DNA of 64,000 nt from Dictyostelium discoideum (lineage: Eukaryota): positions 3,264,001 through 3,328,000 of the forward strand of contig CM000152.2 in NCBI GenBank assembly GCA_000004695.1, written 5' to 3'. Below, piece after piece: positions 27,770 to 43,728 of this stretch; the first letter of the stretch is position 1, and every line of letters starts with the position of its first letter. A program made the translations under genes and the position numbers. The notes under the pieces were generated by a model that made no database searches, had not been told where the DNA came from, and saw only the letters and a program-made list of their open reading frames with translations.

Positions 27770-29366
27770 ATGTGTACAAGAAATAAAAAAGATATTACAA
27801 CAGAATATTTAAATAGTAAAAAGATTGATAGAGAATTAAAACAAGAATCAACAACATTACAACCATTGAAATTATTATTATTAGGTAGTGGTGAATGTGG
27901 TAAATCAACCATTTTCAAACAAATCATTTCATTCCAAGATGAAGCAACTAAAAAAGAATATACACCACCATCTGATTATGTAATTAAAAATATATTTTTA
28001 AATATTTTAACAGCAACAAGTACATTTGTTAGAGTTGCACCAAGTTATAATATAGAATTCTCTGAAGAAGAAAATCAAAAAATTCAATCAATTTTAAATG
28101 TATTTTCAGATTTAGAAAATTTAGACCAAACTGTTTTCACATCTGTCTCTGATAATATTAAATATTTATGGAATTCAAAACAAATTCAATCAATTTATAA
28201 TAATACAAATAGAATTTTTCAATTAAATGATTCAACAGAATAGTATGTATTTTTTATTTTTATTTTTTTTAAAAAAAATCACAAATTACTAATTTTATTT
28301 TTTTTTTTTTTTTTAGCTTAATGAGTAATATTGATAGATATTCAAAACCTTTTAAACCAACCCAAAATGATTTTTTAAGAGTAAGAGTTAAAACAACTGG
28401 TATAGTAGAAGCTGATTTTAAAATTGAAGCAGTTCCTTTTAAGTAAGTAGCTTTATAATAATTTTTTTTATAATTTAAAGTTTGAAATTCATACCACACA
28501 CAATTTTTTTAAGAAAAAAAAAAAAAGCCCATACTATAGCGCTAAAAAGTGTAGTGGTTCCCAATTTGTCGATAGATATTTTTTTTTTTTTTTTTTTTTC
28601 AAATTTTTGGAATTTATTCAATTTAATATTGTTGGGGGTGCTTATTTTTTACAAAAAAAAAAAAAAGATATTTTCATTTTTTTTTTTTTTTTTTTTTTTT
28701 CAAACCTCTCGGCATAATGTTTTTTTCCTTTTTTTTTTTTTTTCCAAAATTTTTTTTTTTTTATTGTGAAATTGAAAACTGTTTTTTTTTTGTCAATTAT
28801 CCTGGTAATTTTATACTAACATTTCATAAAATAAAAAAAAAAAAAAAAAAAAAAAAAAATAAAAAATCTTTTTTTTTATTTTATTTATTTATTTATTTAT
28901 TTTTAGATTAGTTGATGTTGGTGGTCAAAAAAATCAAAGAAGAAAATGGATACATTGTTTCCAAGATATTACATGTGTTTTATTTGTAACATCAATTAAT
29001 GATTATGATACATTATTAGAAGAGGATAATTCAACAAGTAGATTTACAGATTCATTAGAATTATTTAGAGAGATGGTTAATAGTAATTGGTTTACTAAAT
29101 CACCATTTGTATTATTTTTTAATAAAATAGATTTATTTAAAGAGAAAATTAAAAGAATACCAGTTTCTCAACATTTAAAAGATTTCAATGGTAATGATCA
29201 TTCATATGAAGAAACTTCACAATTCATTAAAAATAAATTTCACACAACCATTAAAAATTCAAACAAAATTGTATATCATCATTTCACTTGTGCTTTAGAT
29301 TCTCGTGCTATAGAAGTAGTTTTCAATTCAATTCAACATTCATTATTAATGAATGTTGCAGAAATT

Positions 29367-29372
<6 letters not shown>
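27770..29372 (+). CDS. Heterotrimeric G-protein alpha subunit (354 aa); 3 exons: 27770-28242, 28317-28442, 28907-29372
   Basis: G1 KLLLLGSGECGKSTIFKQI. G2/switch I ..LRVRVKTTGIVE... G3 LVDVGGQKNQRRKW. G4 FFNKIDLF. G5 TCALDS. Junctions ..DSTE|YLMSNIDRY.. and ..AVPFK|LVDVGGQ.. use GTATGT/GTAAGT donors and ..tttag acceptors. The N-terminus MCTRNKK has no Gly2. Confidence 0.85.
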
Positions 29373-29411
<39 letters not shown>

Positions 29412-29944
29412 AAAAATAGAAAAAAAAAAAAAAAAAAAAAAAAATCCAGAAAAAATAAAAAACAAATCAAAAAATAAAAATAAAAATATTTTTTTTTAAA
29501 AAAAAAAAAAAAACTAATTACAAATAAATAAATTATTCATTGTTTTTTTTTGGTTAATAGAGAAAAAAAAAAAAAAAAAAATATCTGTAGTTTTTAAAAC
29601 ATATTTTCTCACAAACAAAATCAAAACTAATGACGCAATAGGGAAAAAGTAAGATTACTGGCATATAAAATTTTATTTTTTTTTAAAATTTTGTTATTTT
29701 TGATTTTTTTTAATTTTCATTTTCAATTTTCTTTTTTTTAATTTTTAATTTTTTTTTTTTTAATTTTTTTAATTTTTTTTTTTTGATTTTTTTAATTTTT
29801 TTTTTTTTATCGTGTGGTTTTTTAAACACTAAACTGTTTAATTTTTTCATTTTATTTAAGTATTATTAAATTATCTTTATTGTTTTTTTTATTTTTTTTT
29901 TAAGATCAAATTAAATTTTATAAAAAAAAAAAAAAAAAAAAAAA

Positions 29945-32736
29945 ATGATTGGATTAAGATCAATTTCAAAGAATAAACAAACAATAAATTCAATTTCAAA
30001 GAGTTTTTATTGTACATCATCACCATCATCATCAAGTGTAAAATTAAGTGTAACAAGATTAATTGATGGATATAGAGCACATGGTCATTTAGCAGCAAAT
30101 ATTGATCCATTAGCAAGAATGGAAAGAATTAGAAGTCAATTATTAGATTTAGATCGTTATAATTTAGTTAAAGGTCAATCAATTCCATCAACTATTGATT
30201 TAATTAATCAAGATTTAACCAACCTTGATCAAGTTGTTAGTTTTCTTGAAAATGCATATTGTAATGATGTTACAGCACAATTTGATCATATTGAATCGAT
30301 TGAAGAAAAAGCATGGCTCTATGAAAAGTTTGAACAATTACAACATCAAAATCCATCAAAATCTGAAAAAATTAATATTTTAAAAAATTTAATTAAATCT
30401 GAAATTTTTGATCAATTTATGCAAAAGAAATTTCCAACTTTTAAAAGGTAACATAAATAAACCCACACACACATATATTTAATAAAAAATTTTTTTTTTT
30501 AAAATATTAATTTTTTAAAATTTTTAATTTTTATAGATATGGTTTAGAAGGTAATGAAAGTATGATGGTATCATGTGATTCAATTTTTAGAGAATCAGCA
30601 AAGAATCAATTAAAGAATGTTGTAATTGGTATGCCACATAGAGGTAGATTAAATTTATTAGTACAAATGTGTAATTATCCAGCAAAAGATTTCTTTTGGA
30701 AAGTTAAAGGTAATTCTGAATTTTCAGAGGGTATTTTAGGTGTTGGTGATGTGACAAGTCATATTGCAGTTAGTACAGATTTACAATTTAATAACAATAA
30801 AGAGAGTGTACATGTATCATTAATTCATAATCCATCACATTTGGAGGCTGTAGATCCTGTAGCAGCAGGTAAAACACGTGCAAAACAATTTTATGAAAAG
30901 AATGAAGGTGGTTCAGAATCATTGTGTTTAATGTTACATGGTGATGCAGCAGTTGCAGGTCAAGGTGTTGTAACTGAAACACTCCAGCTATCTCAATTGT
31001 CTGGATTCAACATTGGTGGTTGTGTACATGTGATTGTAAATAATCAAATTGGGTTCACAACCGTTCCAACCAATGGTAGATCCAATCGTTACAGTTCCGA
31101 TATTGGTAAATTCATTGGTGCACCAATCATTGTAGTAAATTCACAATCACCAGAACAAGTTGAAAAAGTTTCGAGATTGGCCGTTGAATATCGTCAAAAA
31201 TTCAAAAAGGATATAATCATTGATTTAATTGGATGGAGAAAGTTTGGTCATAATGAAGTCGATGAGCCATCATTCACTCAACCAACAATGTATCAAAATA
31301 TTCGTAAACGTCAATCTATTCCACAAAAATATGCAACTCAAATCATTAGTCAAGGTATCTTTAGTGAGCAAGAGTTGTTGGAATTCACTCAAAAGGAACA
31401 AGCCATTCTCGAAGAACAATTCCAATTATCAACACCAGAGAATTTCAAATACTCACCAATGGATCATTTACAAGGTAAATGGAGTGGTTTAATCCAATCA
31501 AAGCATATTGCAGATGATAGTAAACTTGATACAGGTTATTCAGTTGAGGAGTTGAGCGAGATTGCCAATGACTCTGTAAAGGTTCCATCGGATTTCCAAG
31601 TTCATCAAAGATTACTTCGTTCTTTCTCAAATGCAAGATTAGAAAAGTTAAAACAAAACCAAGCAGATTGGGCTACCGCAGAGTCTATGGCAGTGGGTTC
31701 ATTAATGAAACAAGGTTACAATGTTAGAATCTCTGGTCAAGACGTTGGTAGAGGTACTTTCTCTCAAAGACATTTCAATTTAACCGAACAAAATTCTGAC
31801 CGTATATATCAACCATTGAATAACATGGGTGCCAAAGGTGAATTGGATGTTGTAAATAGTAATCTTTCAGAGTTTGCCGTACTTTGCTATGAGTATGGCT
31901 ATTCATTGGAGTCACCAGATACACTACCAATTTGGGAGGCACAATTTGGTGATTTCATCAATGGTGCTCAAATCGCAATCGATCAATTCGTTACAAGTGG
32001 TGAATCTAAATGGTTACGTCAAAGTGGTATTGTCATTCTTTTACCTCACGGTTTCGACGGTGCCGGTCCAGAGCATTCAAGTTGTCGTATTGAACGTTTC
32101 CTTCAATTGAGTGATACCGAAGCTGTAAATGTCAAAGACGATACATTAATCAATCAAGAGACAAACTTTTACTTTATCAATCCTTCAACTCCTGCAAATT
32201 ATTTCCATGCACTTCGTAGACAAATGATTAGAAACTATCGTAAACCATTGATTGTCGCTGGTCCAAAAGTATTATTACGTCATCCAAATTGTTTCTCAAC
32301 TTTAAATGAAATGGCACCAGGAACTCATTTCCAAACAGTTTTATCCGATCCTGATACCATCAATAACGCATCCACAATTAAACGTGTCATCTTTTGTAGT
32401 GGTAAAGTATTCTATGACCTCCAAGAGGAAAGAAAAGCAAAGAATTTCAATGATGTAGCAATCATTCGTCTTGAACAAATCGCTCCATTCCCATATCAAC
32501 GTATTCAAGAAGAAATCAATCGTTATTCAAACGCTACTAAATTCGCTTGGGTTCAAGAAGAACAACAAAATGGTGGTTGTTGGTCATTCGTTGAACCACG
32601 TTTCAAACAACGTTATCCACAAACTTCTCAAATTAAATATATTGGTAGACCACCTTTAGCTGCTTCTGCAATTGGTATCTCTTCAATTCATAAAAAAGAA
32701 GTTTCTCAATTATTAATTGATGCTTTTAATTTTTAA
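29945..32736 (+). CDS. ogdh: 2-oxoglutarate dehydrogenase E1 component, mitochondrial; 2 exons: 29945-30447, 30537-32736
   Basis: N-terminal presequence-like MIGLRSISK... ..LIDGYRAHGHLAANIDPL.. then ..KRYGLEGNESMM..GMPHRGRLNLL..NPSHLEAVDPVAAGKTRA..LHGDAAVAGQGVV..VNNQIGFTT..DLIGWRKFGHNEVDEPSFTQP..GQDVGRGTFSQRH..WEAQFGDF.NGAQI.IDQF..PHGFDGAGPEHSS.R.ERFLQ. These are canonical thiamine-PP dependent E1o motifs. Donor GTAACA; acceptor ..tttatag. Confidence 0.9.
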
Positions 32737-33936
32737 AAAATAAAAAAATAAAAAAATAAAAAAATAAAAATAAAAATAAATTATAAATCTTAAAAAAAAA
32801 AAAAAGAAAAAAATTTAAATATCTTTTTTTATTTTTATTTTTATTTTTTTTTTTTTATAATTATTTTATTTTCCAGTAAAAAAAAAAAAAAAAAAATATT
32901 TGATCCTTAAAATTACATAAAAGGATTTTTTCATGTTTTGTTTTTTATTTTTATTTATTTTTTTATATTTAATAAATAATATAAATTCAAAATACAATTT
33001 CTTCACTATAAATAGAAATGAGTTTTAATAAAACTACTCTTTTCTTACTGTTTAAAAAAATAAAAATTAATATAACCCCCACCACTTTATTTATTATTTT
33101 TTTTACGTATTCTTACTATTGTTTATTTTTTTTATTTTTAATTTTTTTTTTATTTTTTTTAAAAGATTGTGGGGTAACCTTTTTAAGGTTTTTTTTTTTT
33201 TATTTTTTCAAAATTAGTTTTTACAATCTTTCAATTATATAATATATAAAATTTATTTAAATAAAAATAAATAACCTTTTTTTAGAAATTAAAAGTAATA
33301 ATCCTTATATATATTTTTTTTTTAAAAAATAAATAGATTGATTAATTTATCTAATACAAATTTATTAAATTAATTTATTATTTTTTATTTTTTATTTTTT
33401 ATTATAATTAAACCTTATAAAATATAAAAACACATTTTTCTAAAAAATTTTATTTATTTTTTAATTTATTTATTTATTTATTTAATAGTAATAATATTTA
33501 TCAATAATATATTTCAATAAAAAAAAACATAATAATAATAATATTTATAATAATAACAATAATAATCATAATAATAATAAAAAAATAAAAATAAAAATAA
33601 TAATATTTAAATGTTTATAGTATCAATAATTATTAGTTTAAAAAACAATAACAACGAAAACGAGAAACATAATATATTTTAGCATTAAATTAAATTTAGT
33701 TTATTGGTAAGTAATAATAATATTTTGTTTTGTTTGTATGTGTAAGTGGGTGTGTGTTATTGTTATTTTTTTTATTTTTTTTATTTGATAATTTTAAAAA
33801 TCAATGGTGTAATAATTTAACTATCAATTTCATTTTGATTATATTTGTATAATTATTGGTTAATCTAATAAAAACGGAGACATCTAATCATCATCATTTT
33901 AGAAACATAAAATTAAAAATTAAAACATAAAAAATA

Positions 33937-33968
<32 letters not shown>

Positions 33969-35439
33969 CACACACATATACCACATATAACCACACCTAA
34001 TCTACACCACTTAATAATTTTAAATGGTATGGTTTTTTTAAATTCCATATAAAATATATATTTAATTATTATTAAATTTAAAAAATATAAATTAATAATC
34101 AATCATCACATTGTTTTTATTTTTTTTTTTTTTTTTTTTTTTTTTTTGATTTCTTGAATTAATTCTCCACGCATTTTTTATTTATAATAATAAAATCATA
34201 ATAATCACCAAAAATTAAAATTTCATATTAATATTTGGTAATGATGGGTTAAAATTATAAATACAAATAGTTTTTGTTAAAATATAAACCATATTTGTAT
34301 ATTGTGCAATCGGAAATTGGACGTCAGATGTCGTATTTCAAATCAATAATTAAATTAATTTCATTCACACAGCTCCAATTACATTATAGTGTTGTTTTTG
34401 TTTTACTATGGTCATTATTCTAGTTAAAACTTTAATTAATTAAAAAATTTGTGTGTGTGTTTGTGGTTTTTGTTTGTGTTTTGTTTGTGTTTTGTTTGTG
34501 TTTTGTTTGTGTCTCATTGTAACTTTATTTTTGTGGGAAATAAATAATAAAAAACCAATAAAAATAATAATAATAACAACTTTCATAACATTGGGTCCAC
34601 TTTCAAAAGGATAATATTATTTCCATCTATAAAAACATGTTTGAATTTTATTATTTGTAATTAGTATTGTGAATTTTTATATTATTTTAATTTTATTTTA
34701 AATTTCTTTGTTTGATTTTTTTTTTTTTTTTTTTTTTTTAAAAAATATAAATATTTAATATATATTTTTTTATTTTATTTTATTTTATTTTTTTTTAAAA
34801 TCATATATTTTCAATATAATTAAAATAAGATTCAATTTTAAAAATTATCACCAGTCCATTTATTTATTTATAACAAAAAAAAATAAAATAAAAAAAAAAT
34901 TCACATATTATCTATACATTTCTTATTTTTTTAATTAATTTTTTATTTTTTATTTTATATTTTTTTTATTTTTTTTATTTTTTATAATTTCAACAAATAA
35001 AATAAACTCACATAAATTCAATTATTTATTTATTTCCATACCATATTTTTTCATTCAATAAATATTTTATTTAATTAGTATGTAAAAAAAAAAAAAATAA
35101 AAAAAAAATTAAAAAAAATAGAAACAAAATAAAAATTTAACAATAATAGCTAAAATTAAAAAAATTATACAATTGTAAAAAATAAATGTTTATATGTTTT
35201 TTAAGGAAAATAAAAAAAAATATAACAACATTATAATTTTTTTTTTTTTTTTTTTTTTTCAAAGAAGATTTAAAACTAACACTAATTTATTTCATTTAAT
35301 AATTATTATATAATAGAAAAATTAATTTTCAATAGCCATAAAAAAGTTTTACCATATTTATTTATTTCATTTTTAATTTATTAACACCATTATATTTAAA
35401 TATTATTTTTTTAAATTATTTAATTCCATTTTTTATATT

Positions 35440-35478
<39 letters not shown>

Positions 35479-35809
35479 CTTTATTTAATTTGTAAATCAA
35501 AAATTATTATTTTTAAAATTTCATAAAAAAAACATAGTTTAGAATAATAAAAATAATAATAATTAAAATAATAATAATAATAAAAATAATAATAATATAT
35601 AGTTTATAAGTTTTATTTTTTCATTAAAATTATTTAAAAATATAAATTTGTTTTATTATTCCAAAAAAAAAAAAAAACTTATTTATATAAATATTTTATA
35701 ATATAAAAGACAGATTAATTAATTTGATTATAAAAATCAAATTAATATAATCAATTAAAACATCTCTATTCATATAAATTTTTGTGCATTATTTTATAAT
35801 TTTTAAAAA

Positions 35810-36006
35810 ATGACAAAAATGTTTCTTTCTTCAAAGAAAAAGAAATCAACAATTGAAACTTCAGATAAGAAGTATGGAGATGTAAAGTGTCTTAATAATA
35901 ATAAAATAAATAATACTGGTGTTGATATTGATCAACCGATGAAAAAAATAAATCATCAAAATAGTTTTAATAATATAGTTGAAATTCAACAACAACAACA
36001 ACAATT

Positions 36007-36053
<47 letters not shown>

Positions 36054-36499
36054 ATCCAGGTTACTCAGTTGATCAATCAATAGTTTTACAAAATAAAAAT
36101 TTTAATTCAAAAAGTCAGTTTGCTGGAGCATCTGAAATATATGGTAATAATAATATGGATAAGTCACCACCTGTTGCCAATAAACCATTTGAACAAAAAC
36201 ATCATAGTTTAAAAAAAATGTTTAAAAGAGTTTTAGATTTCAATAAAAAGAAAGATGTTGACCCTAAATTGGATGAATTTTTGAAATTGGTCGATTATCA
36301 TAGAGAATTTTTCAAGAGAAGTCCAGAAATTGATAGATATGTTATGACATTGGCATTTATATATATTAAGAAAGCTTTTCCTAATGATACTTTAATTTCA
36401 AATGAATTATTTTTTTATTCTTTATATTTAGCTTGGGTAAGTTTTTAATTTATTATTATTATTATTATTATTGTTAATATTATTATTTTTTATTAATTA

Positions 36500-36538
<39 letters not shown>

Positions 36539-36837
36539 TTTCTAAAAAATAGGAAACTGAAGAAGATTCTACATTGGGTTTAGAAAGTATTATTCATTAT
36601 ATAATTGGAAGTTATCCGTCATCAAAGAATAAAGATAAAAATCAAAGAAAACAAGAAATTATTGAATGGAGAATGAGATTAAGACAGTTCCATACTGGAA
36701 AAGATATTTTATGGAGAGCATTAGATTATAAAACAGTTGTCGATTTTCCACATATTCAAAAAACAATTAAAGCTTTTCCAAATCACGATATTTTAAAAAG
36801 AGAAAGAACTTCAACAACTTCAATTAAATTCTTTTAA
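35810..36837 (+). CDS. Speedy/RINGO-box (Spy1-like) putative CDK-activating cell-cycle regulator; 2 exons: 35810-36436, 36553-36837 (about 303 aa)
   Basis: After a polyQ N-terminus the sequence ..FLKLVDYHREFFKRSPEIDRYVMTLAFIYIKKAFPNDTLISNELFFYSLYLAW|ETEEDSTLGLESIIHYIIGSYPSSKN...EIIEWRMRLRQFHTGKDILWRALDYKTVVDFPHIQKTI matches the RINGO-box consensus NFF.ALYLA...EEDEE..KYEIF.WALG..W...F...R..LW.R..Y...V. Junction LYLAW|ETEEDS uses a GTAAGT donor and an ..aaaaatag acceptor. Confidence 0.65.
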
Positions 36838-37389
36838 AACATAATTTGATAATAATAATAATAATAATAATAATAATATAAAAAAATATATATATTTTTA
36901 TAATAAAGATTAAAAAAAAAAAAAAAAAAAAAAAAAAATAATAATAATGATAATAATAATAATAATACATAAACAATAATTAACAGAAACATAATATGGT
37001 AAAAATATTTGTATTTATAATAATAAAAATAATTCTTATTTATTAAAATGTATTTATTGTTTAGAAAAATTAAAAAATTGTAAATTATCAATTAAATTGA
37101 TTGTATAATTTCAAAACAAAAAAAAAATAGAAAAAAAAAAAATAATAAAAAAAATTTATATACATTCATTTGTATAAATAAAAAAAAAAAAGAAAAAAAG
37201 TTTTGTTTTCAAAAGGTTTTTTTTTTTTTTATTATTATTATTAAAGTTAAACTATTTTGAATTGGCGTAATATAATAAAAAATTATTTTTGTTTATTTAT
37301 TTATTTATTTTTTATTTATATAAATTAAATTTACAATAATGATGGTTTATAATAAACGTATTTACAATAGCATGTGATGCAGTTGTATA

Positions 37390-37560
37390 GAGTATTTATA
37401 AATGACTTTAATAATATGTCGAACCAAGAGAAAAGGAAATCCTTATTTGGCTTTGATGTTGTGAGGCCATAGTAACGCAGAAGTAACATATCTATCTATC
37501 TGAATCTGAATTGGTTACCAATTCAATTGAATCTTTAAGCTATATTTCCTAATTTTTTTC
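37390..37560 (+). repeat. Left arm of an imperfect inverted repeat of about 185 bp (about 90% identity); a sense-orientation duplicate of the last about 28 codons, stop codon and 3'UTR of the HAT-repeat gene, immediately followed by an A-rich tract
   Basis: Plus strand reads aat aga gta ttt ata aat gac ... gtg agg cca tag = NRVFINDFNNMSNQEKRKSLFGFDVVRP*, against the real gene end NRVFRNDFNNMSNQEKRKALFGSDVVKP* (39494-39410, minus). The similarity continues through about 90 nt of UTR (..atctatctatct..aattggttaccaattcaatt..) and an A(n) tract at 37567-37610. Confidence 0.8.
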
Positions 37561-37565
37561 TATAA

Positions 37566-37596
<31 letters not shown>

Positions 37597-37793
37597 AGAA
37601 AAAAATAAGTGTGATGAAAAGTAATTTTTATGGGTCGTTAAAAAAATATACTGAAGTTATTAATTATTAATATGAAATAACAACACATTGAAATAATAAA
37701 TTTAATAGTTTTTTTATTTAGAAAAAGCCATTGATGATTATTATTATTATTATTATTAATCAATAAATTCAAAAGGAATAAAATTAAAAGTGA

Positions 37794-37824
<31 letters not shown>

Positions 37825-38151
37825 AAATAAAGGTAATAATTTGGATAATATAGAAACAGATTTTAAAAGGTAATTAATTTTTTAATATAGAAAAACCTAT
37901 TTTAGATAATATAAAAACTACAACTTATTGTTTAAACAAAAAAGCTCACAATATTAATTTTTTTTTTATTTTTTTTTTTTTAATATTACAAAAAATTTAT
38001 AAAAGGTATCTTGATCTGGATCATCTGTGTCATCAGTATCATCAGTGTCATCTACCTTATCAACTTTATAATTTTCAAGATCTTGAGGACCAGTGCATGC
38101 TACAGTATAACGATGTGGACAAAGAATTTGACCATCAATATACTCATTATA

Positions 38152-38355
38152 CTAACCAAAAAAGTGACAGTACTTTCTTGATTCATTTCTTTCTTTAGAC
38201 TCATGAACGCATTCAATAATTGAACGATTGTAATCTAAATGTGAGAGCGGTTGTTCAGTTAGAAGTCTCCCTTCGTTCTTGTGCACGCCATCTACACCTC
38301 TTGAAGTATTTTGTAAATATAGTTTCTTTAATTTTCCAAATCTTGTATTAAACAT
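38152..38355 (-). CDS. Small ORF (67 aa) inside the inverted-repeat-bounded island; the same frame continues for a further about 58 codons after a single in-frame TAG (possible 57-nt GTTAGT..TAG intron, readthrough or pseudogene)
   Basis: MFNTRFGKLKKLYLQNTSRGVDGVHKNEGRLLTEQPLSHLDYNRSIIECVHESKERNESRKYCHFFG* then YNEYIDGQILCPHRYTVACTGPQDLENYKVDKVDDTDDTDDTDDPDQDTFYKFFVIL in the same frame. Local G+C is about 35% against under 20% in the flanks. No family recognised. Confidence 0.35.
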   Translation of the reverse strand: MFNTRFGKLKKLYLQNTSRGVDGVHKNEGRLLTEQPLSHLDYNRSIIECVHESKERNESRKYCHFFG

Positions 38356-39278
38356 AAAGCCTATTATTTAATTTAATTTCTTGTATGATATGTGCACATA
38401 TTACCTCACCCAATTACCAACCTTCAAACTAAAGTACAAGATTTTTGTGATGATATTCATTATGGAGAGGATAATAAGAGGTATTACAACACAATCAAAA
38501 ATGGGAAGCCATTTGTTTTTCCTTAAATTAAAAATAGTATTGTCATTAATCAACACATTGAAAATGTTTATGAATACCATTTATTGGATCATCAGTTGTA
38601 TTCTTGCAAGAATATTTCTCCAAAACTAGTAAAACTCTCCTACAGGAAAAAGTAGGACAGCCACTTTAAATAATTTTAAGTTTGTACAGGCAGGAGACAT
38701 TTTATTTACTAATGTATGCCCCATTATTCATTCTTATGAAAATAATTATCAAGAGCCACAATCAGAAGCTCAAAATTTAGTCTTCTTTTCAATTTTGAAT
38801 ATTCTATAAGCAAATCCATCTGTAATCATTATTTCAGGTTCAATATCTTTATATCATTTCAAAGAAGCTCTATATAAAATCGAAAATATCCAGTGGGACA
38901 ATGATTCAATCACTATCAATTGTAAGAAAATTATGTAGTTAAAGATTAAACACCTATGTATGCAAGAATCTATAAATCAATTAGATAATAAGCTAAAAAT
39001 ATTTTTTCAATTATACTAATAGTTTATTTAAAAAATTATATTATTTTTGTTAAATCATAATAATAATAATAATAATAATAATAATATTGAAAAGTTGATA
39101 TTTTAAAAAAAATAATTGTATTTAAAAAATTAAAACTCATAAATATGCCTTTTATTTCTTCTGAAGGATAAACCAATTGGTTAATCAGTATTAAAAAAAA
39201 AAAAAAAAAAAGATAATAATATTAATAACTTAAATATATTTTTTTAGCAACTCACGAAAATTACTTTTCATCACACTT

Positions 39279-39309
<31 letters not shown>

Positions 39310-39310
<1 letters not shown>

Positions 39311-39495
39311 TTTATTGAAAAATATTAGGAAATATAACTAACTTAAAGATCTAATTGAATTGGTAACCAATTCAAATTAAGATAGATAGATATGTTACTT
39401 CTGAGGTTACTATGGCTTCACAACATCAGAGCCAAAGAGGGCTTTCCTTTTCTCTTGGTTCGACATATTATTAAAGTCATTTCTAAATACTCTAT
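39310..39495 (-). repeat. Right arm of the roughly 185-bp inverted repeat (the genuine 3' end, stop codon and 3'UTR of the HAT-repeat gene, plus an adjoining poly-T tract at 39270-39314)
   Basis: The reverse complement aligns with 37390-37560 with about 15 mismatches and one 4-nt indel. Confidence 0.8.
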
Positions 39496-39891
39496 TCAAT
39501 GATAAAACACCATCTGAACCAACCCAACATGAACCATATTCAGGTTTTTTTTCTTCAAGATATTGTTCTTTTGGTTGTGTCATTTCGAGTAATAATTTTT
39601 TAGCATTTCTCAATACTTGTCTACTGCTATCTAAAACGCAAACTGTACAATGAAGCCACATAAATCCATAATTTGGATCAGCATTGATACAAAGTTGTTC
39701 CAATTTTGAAATATCACAATTTGGACCTTTCTCCATAATCTCTAAACGAAGTAGTTCAATAAATGAATCTCCAAATTGTGGTGTAAATTGAATTGCAAAT
39801 TCTAAAAATCTTCTGGCTTCTCTTAGTTCATTATTATTTAATGCAATTCTAGCGCCTTCACACCAAACCTCACCAGATTTTGGTACCTAAT

Positions 39892-39934
<43 letters not shown>

Positions 39935-42111
39935 ATGTTAATTCATTTATATATTTTATTATAAATTTGATTTTTTTTAAAACAATGGTGGTTGATATTG
40001 TTATATTATTTTTAAACTTACAAATTGTAAAGCTTTCTTAAAAACATTTAATTGTGATTTAACACCTTTTAATTGATTTAATTGAATAAGAGCAGCCCAT
40101 AGTCTACCAGCACCACTATGAATTTTTAAAGATTCTTTTGCTTCTTTAATTGCTGCTTCATAATTGTTTGCTCTCATTTCAAGTAATACACTTTCTAAAA
40201 ATACTTTCCAATCTAAACGTGCTTCTACATGAGCCATCTTTAAAATTCTACGTGATTTATTAATGTTACCTGCATATTCCTCTAATCTTGAATATTCCAA
40301 TAATACCAATGATCTTAATTTGGATGGTACCTCCTCTAGAGCACGGAAAACCAATTTTCTAGCTATACAAATATTATCAGCATTTAATTCTGTTCTGCTA
40401 CCACCTAACCAAACTTTCCATAATAAATTCTCTGGACAAAGCTCGACACTCTTTACATAGGCAGCTCTAGAGAGTGTTAAATTTTTTGAACGTTCTTCAA
40501 TTTGAGCTGCTTCGAAATAGATTTTCCAAGTTACTTCACGTGATACAGCTTGTCTAGCACGTTCAACGGTATTACGAGTTGATTGAAGGAAACCATGACT
40601 AGTTTTCTCATATAGACGTAATGCACTAAACCAAAGTGGACCATATTTTGGATCTTCAAATAAACCTTTCTCTACAATGTTAATGGCACGTTCATACTCT
40701 TCACATCTCTCTTCAAGTTTATAAGCTTCTTGATAGATTGGACCATACCAAGGTACATGTTTCATGAGATATTTAAAGATCTTTCTAGCAACATCAATAT
40801 TACCAGCACGAGCCTCCAATAAACCACCCTCCATTACAGCTCTCCAAGTTTTATAGATTGATTGATCACGTAGTTGAGAAAGTAATGCTCTTGCTCCCTC
40901 TAAATTATCCATTTTCTCTTCATGACGAATACCTTTAATCAATAAACTCTCATTGAATGGACAATGTTTAAGACCCAATTGAAGTATCTTTTGACATTTC
41001 TCAAGACGACCATAATCTTCCTCCATTTTAGCATACTCTAACCAACCTTGACTAATATAGGGTTGAGTACTTGTAACCTTTCTATAGAATTTACGAGCCA
41101 ACTTAAGGTTATTTTGACGGTTAGCCAAATCTGCCAATTCTAAATAAACTCTCCAATGAACTTTTTCTGGTAAAACACTTAATGATTGAAAAGCAAATTC
41201 CATTGCAATCTCTAATCCTTCTTTTTCTTTTAATTTAAATTGTTTAATAAAGTGTTTATATTGTTGTTTAGAAACTGGACTCTCTACCAATTCACCTCTT
41301 TTAGATTCATTTGGTGGTGGTTTAGAATGATTAACTGTTGTTAATAACTCTTCATTATCTGAATCATTATTAATAATATTAATATTTGTTTGATTATTAA
41401 TTGTTGTAACATTATTTGTATTATTATTATGTTGTTGTTGTTGTCTTTGATTTGAAGTTGGTGGTTGTTGTTGTTGTGGTTGTTGTGATTGTTGTAGAAG
41501 AGGTGATTGAGTTGTTGATGTTTGTACATTTTGTTGTTGTTGTTGTTGTTGTTGTGTAGATTGTTGAGTTTGATTTTGTTTTTGATGTTGATTTTTGTGA
41601 TTTGGATGTGACTGATTATGGTGTTGGTTATGATGTTGGTTATGTTGATTATGTTGATGTTGGCCATGATGTTGGCTATGTTGATTGTGTTGATGTTGGC
41701 CATGGTGTTGATTATGTTGATGTTGACCATGATGTTGATTGTGTTGATGTTGACCATGGTGTTGATTATGTTGATGTTGACCATGGTGTTGCATTCANNN
41801 NNNNNNNNNNNNNNNNNNNNNNNNNNNNNNNNNNNNNNNNNNNNNNNNNNNNNNNNNNNNNNNNNNNNNNNNNNNNNNNNNNNNNNNNNNNNNNNNNGTG
41901 GTGATTGTTGTTGGTTATTGTTTAAAATCGGTTGATAGTAATACTTTGGATAGTGTTGTTGATTTTGTTGTTGATTTTGTTGTTGATTCTGTTGTTGGTT
42001 TTGTTGTTGATTTTGTTGTTGCTGTTGCTGTTGCTGTTGTTGCTGTTGCTGTTGCTGTTGCTGTTGTATTTGCATTTGCATTTGTAACATTTGTTGGTGT
42101 TGTAAGAGGCT

Positions 42112-42151
<40 letters not shown>

Positions 42152-42667
42152 ATTGGGTTTTGTTGCATTGAGTTTTGTTGTAATTGAATAGGTGGTGGTT
42201 TTACAACACTTGACCAATGATCTCTATTTGATGTTACAGTTGATTTAATTTGTTGATTATTTAAATATACAAGGTTTTGTGTTTGTTGTTGTTGTTGTTG
42301 TTGTCTTTGTTGTTGTTGTTGTAACATTGCTTGGGTGTGATTTGTTGAGGTTGATTGATCAGGTTGTAAAGATGGACTCCAATTGAATCCATTAACACCA
42401 GCATCAAATGACATATTTTGATAACTACCAGTGCTAGTATTTAATTTTTGTTGTTGTCTATAATTATTTGTGTTAATATTATTGTTATTATTGTTGCCAC
42501 TATAAATATCACCCAAAACTGGTGATGAAATTGGTGCATTTAATGGTGAAACTGATGGATTGGCAATATATTGAGGTGTTGGTGGTGTTTGATCAATTTT
42601 AATAATACCATTGATTGACGTATTTTGTTGTTGCTGTTGTTGCTGTTGCTGTTGTTGCTGTTGTTGC

Positions 42668-42729
<62 letters not shown>

Positions 42730-43151
42730 TTGTGTATAGAAAAATGGTGAAATTGGTGAAGGGGAAGATTTTAATTTTAATTTTTGTTGTTGTTGTTGTA
42801 ATTGTTGTTGTCTTGAAACTATTGAAGAATTTGTACTTGGTAAACCATTTATATTTCTCTCAGAGAATGGATGAAAGAAGTAATTTGGATTTCCAAATGA
42901 AATCTCTTCACCATCACTTAATCTCTCTAAAGATCTTTGAAGTAATTGTTGTTGTTCATCCAATAGTTTATCATCTTCCTCATCTATATCACCACTTCCA
43001 TTATTTATACTGATTCCATTGATGCTACTAATACCATTCATACCAAAACTAACATCATTAATCATCATATTACTACCACTACTACTTGTCATACCATTTA
43101 CTATTGGACTCACGATTCTCTGTGCATGATGACTATTTGTTATTAAACTAC

Positions 43152-43250
<99 letters not shown>

Positions 43251-43307
43251 TATTATTATTGTTGTTGATATTAAAATGTTGTTGTTGTTGTTCATGATAA
43301 TATTGTT

Positions 43308-43338
<31 letters not shown>

Positions 43339-43483
43339 GTTATAATATCCTCTATTTCCACCTCTAATAATATTAACATTATCTATTTGGTTATCATCTA
43401 TATCATATAAATTACCATGGGTAATACTGGTGTTGCTATTGTTATGAACATAGCTAAATGTTGGGGATATATATTGTTGTGGG

Positions 43484-43529
<46 letters not shown>

Positions 43530-43728
43530 GATGATGTTGTTGTTGATGATGTTGTTGTTGTTGATGTTGTTGATGATAATTGCCACCAAATCTAACTTGA
43601 TTGAACTGTGTTGTATGTTGCTGTTGTTGTTGTTGTACTTGAGTATTATTTTGTTGTTGGTGGTGATGCTGTTGTTGATTTAACATCATCCTACCAAAAG
43701 AATAGGATAGAGAGTCTTCGTTATTCAT
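39410..43728 (-). CDS. HAT/TPR-repeat protein whose C-terminal about 600 aa resemble pre-mRNA-processing factor 6 (PRP6)-type HAT arrays, fused to a polyQ/polyN/polyH N-terminal region of about 800 aa or more. The CDS is interrupted by a 100-N assembly gap (41798-41897). The last intron is 39887-40021 (exons ..40022 and 39886-39410)
   Basis: ATG at 43728 (MNNEDSLSYSFGRMML...). ORF 41341-43728 and ORF 40001-41794 are in different frames across the N gap. The HAT repeats are of the form ..W..Y.E.A.....L..AR..Y.R......P.....W..YA.ME... The C-terminus ..KSGEVWCEGARIALNNNELREARRFLEFAIQFTPQFGDSFIELLRLE...INADPNYGFMWLHC.. parallels the PRP6 C-terminus (..NSGILWSEAIFLE.. ..GDAWAFFYKFE.. ..AEPRHGELWC). 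The junction ..KKALQF|VPKSGEVW uses a GTAAGT donor and an ..attag acceptor. The conserved PRP1_N domain was not seen. Confidence 0.6.
41600..41797. repeat. Tandem 30-bp coding repeats (five or more copies of cat ggt caa cat caa cac aat caa cat, encoding Q-H-H-G-Q-H-Q-H-N-Q) abutting the assembly gap
   Basis: ORF 40001-41794 begins MQHHGQHQHNQHHGQHQHNQHHGQHQHNQ... The nucleotide period is visible directly as 'ccatgatgttgg..tatgttgattgtgttgatgttgg..' iterations. Confidence 0.8.
41798..41897. other. Assembly/scaffold gap (100 N) inside the HAT-repeat gene
   Basis: Run of 'n' characters. The reading frame differs on the two sides. Confidence 0.99.
43141..43262. repeat. (ATT)about 40 trinucleotide repeat, translated on the minus strand as a poly-Asn tract in the HAT-repeat gene
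   Basis: Direct reading. It corresponds to NNNN... in ORF 41341-43728. Confidence 0.85.

What the first reader, a model, noticed from the sequence alone, without database searches (positions are those of the whole stretch)
35810..36837. Speedy/RINGO-box CDK activator homolog in an amoebozoan genome
The spliced product carries a well-conserved RINGO box (..LAFIYIKKAFPNDTLISNELFFYSLYLAW|ETEEDSTLGLESIIHYIIG...EIIEWRMRLRQFHTGKDILWRALDYKTVVDFPHIQ). Speedy/Spy1 proteins are best known as vertebrate atypical CDK activators, so a clear homolog in a social amoeba is phylogenetically interesting. The N-terminus is polyQ-rich, as is usual for this genome.
Basis: partly seen in the sequence, partly recalled or inferred. 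Interest (0 to 1): 0.55.

Follow-up and report, generated by a model that had tools for sequence, protein, structure and literature searches.

The report
Known Dictyostelium Speedy/RINGO gene speA
This two-exon gene really does encode a Speedy/RINGO-type cyclin-dependent-kinase partner in the social amoeba Dictyostelium discoideum, but it is already published as speA (DDB_G0280357), a stalk-cell marker, so it is a correct but ordinary finding.

Summary
Window 35810-36837 (+) is a two-exon gene: exon 1 35810-36436, a 116-nt GT..AG intron, exon 2 36553-36837. It encodes 303 aa with a polyQ tract and the quoted peptides. Residues 175-294 match Pfam Spy1 (PF11357) above the curated cut-off. A profile of 21 homologs hits human Speedy A in the PDB at E=1e-13. 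An AlphaFold model of the 96%-identical D. dimigraforme domain matches Spy1 chains from CDK2 complexes (TM 0.70-0.83); cyclins score only marginally. The three acidic residues by which human Spy1 grips CDK2 (D97, E135, D136) are conserved here as D175, E213 and D214.

The window is D. discoideum AX4. The gene is DDB_G0280357, named speA (speedyA) by Forbes et al. 2022. Their promoter primers and their stated distance to the upstream gene map exactly onto this window. It is silent in growing cells, switches on at culmination in stalk and basal disc cells, and its promoter responds to c-di-GMP. Amoebozoan Speedy genes were also reported in a 2018 preprint.

Verdict: interpretation supported, already known. 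CDK binding and activation remain untested in the papers I could search. Non-metazoan members carry a conserved insertion that animal Speedy lacks.

The parts
34829..35848 (+). Published speA promoter fragment (-983..+39 from the ATG) used for the promoter-lacZ fusion.
   Evidence: Primer 280357-Fw matches 34829-34855 exactly. The first 22 nt of the reverse complement of 280357-Rv match 35819-35840. The primer table is in the PMC9117722 supplement.
35810..36436 (+). Exon 1 (codons 1-209). It holds the low-complexity N-terminal region and the first part of the Speedy/RINGO box.
   Evidence: ORF and translation. The donor GTAAGT is at 36437.
35987..36052 (+). PolyQ tract (residues 60-81).
   Evidence: It is variable in orthologs.
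36098..36145 (+). Conserved short N-terminal motif NFNSKSQFAGASEIYG (residues 97-112). Role unknown.
   Evidence: The consensus FNSKxQxxGAxEIYG is conserved in most dictyostelid orthologs, with variants in P0005 and P0007.
36248..36436 (+). First part of the conserved domain (residues 147-209). It includes D175 (36332-34), the equivalent of human Spy1 D97.
   Evidence: Family alignments A2 and A3. HMMER alignment to 5uq1_B. Role of D97 taken from PMC6170502.
36437..36552 (+). Intron: 116 nt, phase 0, GT..AG, 5% GC.
   Evidence: The position is conserved in D. dimigraforme, where the intron is 107 nt, and in distant relatives.
36553..36837 (+). Exon 2 (codons 210-303 plus the stop). It holds the rest of the Speedy/RINGO box.
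36559..36567 (+). Acidic loop E212-E213-D214, equivalent to human Spy1 E134-E135-D136. D136 is the residue that mimics phospho-T160.
   Evidence: Alignment. Invariant in A3. The EED motif is present in 21 of the 22 sequences of the wider alignment. Roles taken from PMC13570426 and PMC6170502.
36610..36663 (+). Conserved insertion SYPSSKNKDKNQRKQEII (residues 229-246). It is present in the non-metazoan relatives aligned here (named ones are Amoebozoa) and absent from metazoan Speedy.
   Evidence: Gap in human Speedy A and in Saccoglossus. Multiple alignment. In the model it forms a loop plus the N-terminal extension of a 28-residue helix.

Best explanation
This is speA (speedyA, DDB_G0280357) of Dictyostelium discoideum AX4, a genuine and already named member of the Speedy/RINGO (Pfam Spy1) family. 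The protein has a disordered N-terminal half containing polyQ and a C-terminal helical Speedy/RINGO box of about 155 residues. The most likely mechanism is inferred, not shown. The box would dock on the PSTAIRE-helix and activation-loop face of a Dictyostelium CDK as a single cyclin-box fold. Its conserved acidic residues would do the work: D175 and E213 would anchor the activation loop, and D214 would occupy the arginine pocket that normally holds the phosphorylated T-loop threonine. This would switch the kinase on without CAK phosphorylation. The gene is silent in growing cells. It is induced at culmination in prestalk, stalk and basal disc cells under the stalk inducer c-di-GMP. Any such CDK activity would therefore serve terminal stalk-lineage differentiation rather than the vegetative cell cycle. 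My estimates are about 0.97 for family membership and gene identity, and about 0.6 for actual CDK binding and activation. The overall confidence of 0.85 is a blend of these two that leans towards the identity and family claim.
For: Gene model and peptides. Pfam Spy1 at 33.6 bits, above the cut-off of 25. All 21 aligned relatives hit Spy1 only. The top PDB hit is human Speedy A. The AF2 model has pLDDT 89.1 and pTM 0.84. Foldseek ranks 1-5 are Spy1/Speedy A chains from CDK2 complexes, TM 0.70-0.83. D97, E135 and D136 are conserved as D175, E213 and D214, with their roles taken. Purifying selection against D. dimigraforme: dN/dS 0.11 overall and 0.058 in the domain. Synteny with D. dimigraforme: G-alpha, 2-oxoglutarate-dehydrogenase-like, Spy1. 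Source organism: two window ORFs are exact matches to AX4 proteins DDB_G0280333 and DDB_G0280411. Gene identity: the published 280357 primers map to 34829 and 35819. The published '5' gene -3074' equals 35810-32736, which is the stop of the upstream gene. Name, domain, conservation and expression: PMC9117722. The promoter-lacZ fusion is induced about 6-7 fold by c-di-GMP and 17 fold with DIF-1 added.
Against: I found no biochemical or genetic test of CDK binding or activation for any amoebozoan Speedy. Identity to animal Speedy is only about 26-27%. The Pfam match for the window protein starts at profile position 29. A conserved 18-residue insertion next to the acidic loop could change partner contacts. 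E137-E139 of the human acidic loop are S-T-L here. Expression in non-dividing, terminally differentiating cells is not what a classical cell-cycle activator would show.
Confidence: 0.85

Rival explanations
1. The protein is a Spy1-fold protein that does not activate a CDK catalytically. It would act as an adaptor or scaffold in stalk and basal-disc cells. Two versions are possible. It could tether a CDK or another partner to a structure, as mammalian Speedy A does at meiotic telomeres independently of CDK2 activation. Or it could bind a non-CDK partner through the insertion found in non-metazoan members and the invariant C-terminal K-[FY]-F tail.
For: Expression is confined to post-mitotic stalk-lineage cells and is zero in vegetative cells. 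The conserved insertion and C-terminal tail are absent from animal Speedy. An activation-independent role of Speedy A-CDK2 binding is cited in PMC6170502, ref. 64.
Against: The residues that make the activating contacts (D97, E135, D136) are invariant among the close relatives and retained in nearly all of the wider set. That is hard to explain if activation-loop engagement were dispensable. The domain is under very strong constraint (dN/dS 0.058).
Confidence: 0.3
2. The match reflects a generic cyclin-box or helical-bundle fold. On this reading the protein is a divergent cyclin, not a Speedy/RINGO protein.
For: Speedy is itself a single cyclin-box fold. Weak Foldseek matches to cyclin T1, B1, D1, K and E appear in the list (ranks 6-28).
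Against: The cyclin matches have E of 0.5 or worse and TM of about 0.4. Speedy A chains have E~1e-4, probability 1.00 and TM up to 0.83. No Pfam cyclin family is hit; Spy1 is the only family above its cut-off. The profile search of 1.84 billion representatives found 193 hits at E<=0.001, and all 10 that I scanned against Pfam matched Spy1 and no other family.
Confidence: 0.01
3. The gene model is an artefact: a chance ORF pair, a pseudogene or a wrong splice in AT-rich DNA.
For: The genome is 20% GC, with many spurious ORFs. The exact protein is not in the large protein collection.
Against: Orthologs with 72-94% domain identity occur across Dictyostelia. The intron position is conserved. dN/dS is 0.11. 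RNA-seq and promoter-lacZ expression are published. The absence from the collection also covers every D. discoideum and D. citrinum ortholog, while neighbouring AX4 proteins are present. That looks like a withheld cluster, not missing annotation.
Confidence: 0.01

Closest known systems
Human Speedy A / Spy1 / RINGO A (SPDYA; PDB 5UQ1-5UQ3, 7E34)
   Same: Both match the Pfam Spy1 box. The predicted single cyclin-box-like helical fold superposes with TM 0.70-0.83. The CDK2-contacting acidic residues D97, E135 and D136 are conserved as D175, E213 and D214. Both have the LYLA...EED motif and the (K/R)D.LW...(D/N)Y...V helix, with disordered flanking regions.
   Different: Identity is only about 26-27%. 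An 18-residue conserved insertion (residues 229-246) follows the acidic loop. The acidic loop is shortened (EED-STL against EEDEEE). The protein ends a few residues after the box in an invariant K-[FY]-F, whereas vertebrate Speedy has a long C-terminal extension. The N-terminus is polyQ-rich. Expression is in terminally differentiating stalk cells rather than in oocytes, germ cells or G1/S. CDK binding is untested.
Dictyostelid SpeA orthologs (D. dimigraforme ACTA71_009192, D. purpureum DICPUDRAFT_96142, P. violaceum CYY_003406, H. album PPL_08250, T. lacteum DLAC_07509, C. fasciculata DFA_02495)
   Same: Same architecture. Domain identity is 72-94% for the six of these orthologs returned. The intron position and synteny are shared with D. 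dimigraforme, the only one checked for these. All carry the same insertion, and all but C. fasciculata (which matched the family profile over its full length) end in SIK[FY]F.
   Different: Only the length and composition of the low-complexity N-terminus differ. According to PMC9117722, the orthologs in taxon groups 2 and 3 are also expressed in spores.
Other amoebozoan Spy1-domain proteins (Balamuthia mandrillaris QOT17_010162, Endostelium zonatum transcript) and unnamed environmental homologs (P0009-P0062)
   Same: Full-length, single-stretch matches to the same profile, with an insertion at the same place and the EED motif.
   Different: Identity is 25-55%. The insertion varies in length (13-25 aa) and sequence. 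Some have C-terminal acidic extensions.
Canonical cyclins (A, B, D, E, K, T)
   Same: They share a helical cyclin-box-like fold and the presumed docking site on the CDK.
   Different: There is no detectable sequence similarity, only one box, and structural matches are marginal (E>0.5, TM about 0.4). Cyclins need T-loop phosphorylation of the CDK; Speedy supplies an aspartate instead.

Membership tests
Speedy/RINGO (Pfam PF11357 Spy1) | Sequence match to the Speedy/RINGO box above the curated Pfam threshold. | tested here: met
   33.6 bits against a cut-off of 25, E=5.6e-8, residues 175-294 matching profile positions 29-131 of 131. All 21 aligned relatives match, best E 9.8e-15. A profile of the relatives hits human Speedy A at E=1e-13.
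Speedy/RINGO (Pfam PF11357 Spy1) | Single cyclin-box-like helical fold, as in the Spy1-CDK2 crystal structures. | tested here: met
   AF2 model of the 96%-identical D. dimigraforme domain: pLDDT 89.1. Foldseek top 5 are 7e34_B and the 5uq1, 5uq2 and 5uq3 Spy1 chains, probability 1.00, TMt 0.78-0.83. Caveat: this is a predicted structure and an ortholog, not the window protein itself.
Speedy/RINGO (Pfam PF11357 Spy1) | Acidic residues that contact the CDK activation loop and replace phospho-T160 (human D97, E135, D136). | tested here: met
   D175, E213 and D214 align to D97, E135 and D136 (numbering cross-checked). They are invariant in A3 and near-universal in the wider set. Roles come from PMC6170502 and PMC13570426.
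Speedy/RINGO (Pfam PF11357 Spy1) | No sequence similarity to cyclins. | tested here: met
   No cyclin family appears in the Pfam scans even at E up to 10.
Speedy/RINGO (Pfam PF11357 Spy1) | Direct binding and activation of CDK1/CDK2-type kinases without T-loop phosphorylation. | not testable with these tools
   This needs biochemistry or at least a multimer structure prediction. No published test for any amoebozoan member was found.
Speedy/RINGO (Pfam PF11357 Spy1) | Role in cell-cycle or meiotic transitions. | tested here: inconclusive
   Published RNA-seq shows zero expression in vegetative (dividing) cells. Expression peaks in fruiting bodies and is enriched in stalk. This argues against a growth-phase cell-cycle role but says nothing about a differentiation-linked CDK role.
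D. discoideum gene DDB_G0280357 (speA) | Same genomic locus as the published gene. | tested here: met
   Published primers map at 34829-34855 and from 35819. The published 3074-bp distance to the 5' gene equals 35810-32736. The window is AX4, and the flanking genes DDB_G0280333 and DDB_G0280411 bracket the ID. The published domain label is 'spy1'.

The most novel reading that the evidence does not exclude
SpeA could be a working, CAK-independent CDK activator that Dictyostelia deploy after the last mitosis, specifically to run the terminal stalk and basal-disc programme (vacuolation, wall synthesis, cell death) under c-di-GMP control. On this reading, the insertion-bearing form found in Amoebozoa (Dictyostelia, Balamuthia, Endostelium) represents the ancestral Speedy. 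That would place the family's origin before the split of Amoebozoa from animals and fungi, with loss in fungi and shortening in animals. It would be the first functional Speedy outside animals and a CDK role in non-dividing somatic cell fate.
Probability: 0.3. Interest if true: 0.5.

Novelty: already known. Interest (0 to 1): 0.18.

Why it matters
As a discovery it matters little. The gene is annotated and named, its Spy1 domain is noted, and its expression is mapped (Forbes et al. 2022). Amoebozoan Speedy genes were listed in 2018. Two things remain open and can now be tested cheaply in a tractable organism. First, does a Speedy protein outside animals actually activate a CDK? The residue-level conservation of the phospho-threonine mimic shown here gives a direct mutational test (D214A). 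Second, what is a CDK activator doing in post-mitotic stalk cells? The conserved insertion and the C-terminal K-[FY]-F tail, both absent from animal Speedy, mark out a distinct subgroup that could inform how the Speedy-CDK interface evolved.

Tried and rejected
1. I first suspected the gene was unannotated in D. discoideum. No D. discoideum protein appeared among the homologs. Three alternative models of the protein were absent from the 15-billion-sequence collection. I rejected this idea because the literature names DDB_G0280357 speA with a spy1 domain and its primers map here. The absence affects the whole cluster of close orthologs (D. discoideum strains, D. citrinum), while neighbouring AX4 proteins are present. 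It therefore looks like a gap or withheld cluster in the collection, not a gap in annotation.

2. I could not see the AX4 gene calls around the locus.

I reran both with the D. dimigraforme ortholog as first row.

4. The word-indexed profile search reached only amoebozoan-type relatives and no animal Speedy. The exhaustive HMMER search was needed to bridge to animals.

5. The McGrath et al. 2017 structure paper is not held. Contact residues were taken from two open papers instead.

6. tRNA and Rfam scans of the whole window found nothing.

7. The GC-richer 1.55-kb core downstream has no convincing ORF and no copy elsewhere in the window or in the D. dimigraforme locus.

Full report
**1. Observation**

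The region 35810-36837 on the + strand is a compact two-exon gene.
- An ATG at 35810 opens a 209-codon exon that ends ...TAT TTA GCT TGG at 36436.
- A 116-nt intron follows (36437-36552). It starts GTAAGT, ends ATAG, and has 5% GC against 25-26% in the exons.
- Exon 2 runs from 36553 to the TAA at 36835-36837.
- The spliced product is 303 aa and holds both quoted peptides verbatim, joined at LYLAW|ETEEDS. It has a Q-rich tract at residues 60-81.

**2. Is it a Speedy/RINGO protein?**

Sequence evidence:
- Pfam gives one significant family, Spy1 (PF11357): 33.6 bits against a curated cut-off of 25, E=5.6e-8. Residues 175-294 match profile positions 29-131. The other listed hits are low-complexity noise below their cut-offs.
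- Against all PDB chains the best matches are human Speedy A (7e34_B, 5uq1_B; E about 2e-4).
- A homolog search returned orthologs from several dictyostelid genera (D. dimigraforme, D. purpureum, Polysphondylium violaceum, Heterostelium album, Tieghemostelium lacteum) at 72-94% identity over the query. It also returned about 50%-identical unnamed environmental sequences. All carry PF11357.
- A profile of 21 such sequences (alignment A3) hits Speedy A in the PDB at E=1e-13. All 21 match Spy1 and nothing else.

Structural evidence:
- The model is confident: pLDDT 89.1, pTM 0.84, seven helices.
- Its five best Foldseek matches in the PDB are the Spy1/Speedy A chains of the CDK2 complexes (probability 1.00, TM 0.70-0.83).
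- Cyclins T1, B1, D1, K and E follow only at E>0.5 and TM about 0.4.

**3. Functional residues**

Published structural work on human Spy1-CDK2 gives three key contacts.
- D97 and E135 anchor the CDK2 activation loop, binding R157 and T158.
- D136 binds R50 and R150 in place of phospho-T160 (PMC6170502).
- D136A abolishes activation of unphosphorylated CDK2 (PMC13570426).

In the HMMER alignment these residues correspond to D175, E213 and D214 of the window protein (positions checked).
- All three are invariant in the 21-sequence alignment.
- The EED motif is kept in 21 of the 22 sequences of a wider set that includes Balamuthia, Endostelium and animal sequences.
- The rest of the human acidic loop (E137-E139) is S-T-L here.

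**4. Constraint and gene structure**

- Against the D. dimigraforme ortholog, dN/dS is 0.11 overall, 0.058 in the domain and 0.16 in the N-terminal half.
- That ortholog has its intron (107 nt) at the same position and phase.
- Gene calls from distant relatives run into an intron at exactly LYLAW| (P0039, P0042) or begin at |ETEEDS (P0036, P0037). The intron is therefore old.
- Synteny is shared with D. dimigraforme: G-alpha gene, 2-oxoglutarate-dehydrogenase-E1-like gene, Spy1 gene, then a long minus-strand gene.

**5. Whose genome, and is the gene known?**

- Two complete ORFs in the window are exact matches to D. discoideum AX4 proteins DDB_G0280333 (11255-11947, minus strand) and DDB_G0280411 (53501-54841) on a 6.43-Mb record.
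- A full-text search for 'Spy1' plus 'discoideum' found Forbes et al. 2022 (PMC9117722). Table 1 lists DDB_G0280357 as speA with domain 'spy1', pattern 'stalk + disc', conserved in all taxon groups. The text calls it 'speedyA'.

The supplementary primer table ties that locus tag to this window.
- Primer 280357-Fw matches 34829-34855 exactly.
- The reverse complement of 280357-Rv starts at the ATG at 35819.
- The stated construct span, -983 to +39, fits an ATG at 35810.
- The stated distance to the 5' gene, 3074 bp, equals 35810 minus 32736. Position 32736 is the last base of the upstream gene's stop codon.

A 2018 preprint (bioRxiv 10.1101/354886) had already listed Speedy genes in two amoebozoans (D. 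fasciculatum and D. purpureum) and in two taxa it lists under Ichthyosporea (Amoebidium parasiticum and Capsaspora owczarzaki). The finding is therefore correct but already known.

**6. What the published expression says**

RNA-seq values compiled in the paper's supplement show:
- speA at 0 in vegetative cells and near 0 up to the slug stage;
- about 30-36% of maximum at culmination, and maximal in fruiting bodies;
- 87-100% of the prestalk/prespore signal in prestalk cells;
- in purified cell types, stalk 62-100, spore 0.8-14, cup 2-11 and vegetative 0.

The promoter-lacZ fusion is induced about 5.7-6.9 fold by 1-10 uM c-di-GMP. Induction is 1.1 fold with DIF-1 alone, 17 fold with both, and about 4 fold with BHQ (values, column headers). 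This is a late, stalk-lineage gene and not a growth-phase cell-cycle gene. I found no paper that tests CDK binding, kinase activation or a mutant phenotype.

**7. Wider family**

- An exhaustive HMMER search of 1.84 billion cluster representatives with the A3 profile found only 193 proteins at E<=0.001, of which 34 reach E<=1e-10.
- Most of the stronger hits (roughly those down to E about 1e-11), apart from truncated or intron-interrupted gene calls, match the whole profile in one stretch. The named ones are Cavenderia fasciculata, Endostelium zonatum and Balamuthia mandrillaris. The rest are unnamed metagenome or transcriptome sequences.
- Most of the weaker hits match in two stretches. The one I looked up by name is an animal Speedy A-like protein (Saccoglossus kowalevskii), and all four of them that I scanned match Spy1 at 174-203 bits.

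The reason for the split is an insertion of 13-25 residues after the I-G-x-[YFAL]-P turn. Here it is SYPSSKNKDKNQRKQEII, residues 229-246. It is present in all the non-metazoan sequences and absent from the animal ones. In the model it is a loop plus the N-terminal extension of a 28-residue helix. The dictyostelid and closest environmental proteins also end in a conserved K-[FY]-F a few residues after the box. Animal Speedy proteins continue for 100 residues or more.

**8. Mechanism**

Shown here: homology, predicted fold, conservation of the CDK-contact residues, and purifying selection. Taken from the published paper: expression.

Inferred: SpeA docks on a Dictyostelium CDK like a one-domain cyclin and uses D214 as a built-in substitute for T-loop phosphorylation. 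This would give CAK-independent kinase activity in differentiating stalk and basal-disc cells. I put family membership and gene identity at about 0.97 and real CDK activation at about 0.6.

The main rival (about 0.3) is a non-catalytic adaptor role, or a role with a different partner mediated by the insertion and tail specific to non-metazoan members. The 'generic cyclin' and 'artefact' readings are rejected (about 0.01 each).

**9. Verdict**

Novelty is 'already known' and interest is low. The small added value here has three parts:
- the residue-level mapping of the phospho-mimic aspartate (D214);
- the definition of the insertion and tail specific to non-metazoan members;
- the reminder that the biochemical function of this named marker gene has not been tested in anything I could find.

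Noticed in passing
window 37383-39499: An inverted repeat lies downstream of speA. Its arms (about 37383-37673 and 39213-39499, 87% identical over 296 nt) flank a GC-richer core of about 1.55 kb (GC up to 0.36). The right arm contains the 3' end of the last exon of the neighbouring minus-strand gene (...NDFNNMSNQEKRKALFGSDVVKP). The left arm is an inverted, diverged copy of it (+ strand ORF 37374-37472). In D. dimigraforme the Spy1 gene and that neighbour are 433 bp apart, against about 2.57 kb here, so AX4 has about 2.1 kb extra. The core has no convincing ORF and no other copy in the window.
   Followed up: partly
window 41798-41897: A 100-N assembly gap sits inside a polyQ/polyN-rich minus-strand coding region. 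The ORFs at 40001-41794 and 41341-43728 are probably one long gene, which is 1564 aa in D. dimigraforme.
   Followed up: no
window 35810-36837 (protein collection look-ups): The exact SpeA protein is missing from the 15-billion-protein collection, and so are all D. discoideum, D. cf. discoideum and D. citrinum orthologs. Neighbouring AX4 proteins and the D. dimigraforme ortholog are present. This could mislead a reader into calling the gene unannotated. The literature shows that it is annotated.
   Followed up: yes
window 32737-35809: The 5' intergenic region is unusually long at 3074 bp. It has GC-richer islands at about 33650-34700 and a (TG)n-like run near 34450-34475. The published promoter construct used only the proximal 983 bp. 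No tRNA or Rfam family was found there.
   Followed up: partly
window 36098-36145 (residues 97-112) and 36820-36834 (residues 299-303): Two short conserved elements lie outside the classical Speedy box. One is an N-terminal motif, FNSKxQxxGAxEIYG, conserved in most Dictyostelia orthologs. The other is a conserved C-terminal K-[FY]-F end shared with the closest environmental relatives and modelled with low confidence. They could be docking or degradation motifs.
   Followed up: no
primer 280357-Rv against window 35819-35848: The published reverse primer, as printed, has one A fewer (AAAGAAAAGAAATCA) than the window (AAAGAAAAAGAAATCA). This is either a deliberate frame adjustment for the lacZ fusion, an Ax2/AX4 difference, or a transcription slip in the PDF.
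   Followed up: partly
window 27770-32736: The upstream neighbours are a G-protein alpha subunit gene (exon 1 at 27770-28243) and a two-exon 900-aa 2-oxoglutarate-dehydrogenase-E1/DHTKD1-like gene (29945-30447 + 30537-32736). Both are syntenic with D. dimigraforme.
   Followed up: partly
P0036, P0037, P0039, P0041, P0042 (environmental homologs): Several database proteins of this family are mis-called across introns. They read through after LYLAW, or contain junk between FHAGK and GKDLLW. This reveals two conserved intron positions in unnamed relatives.
   Followed up: no
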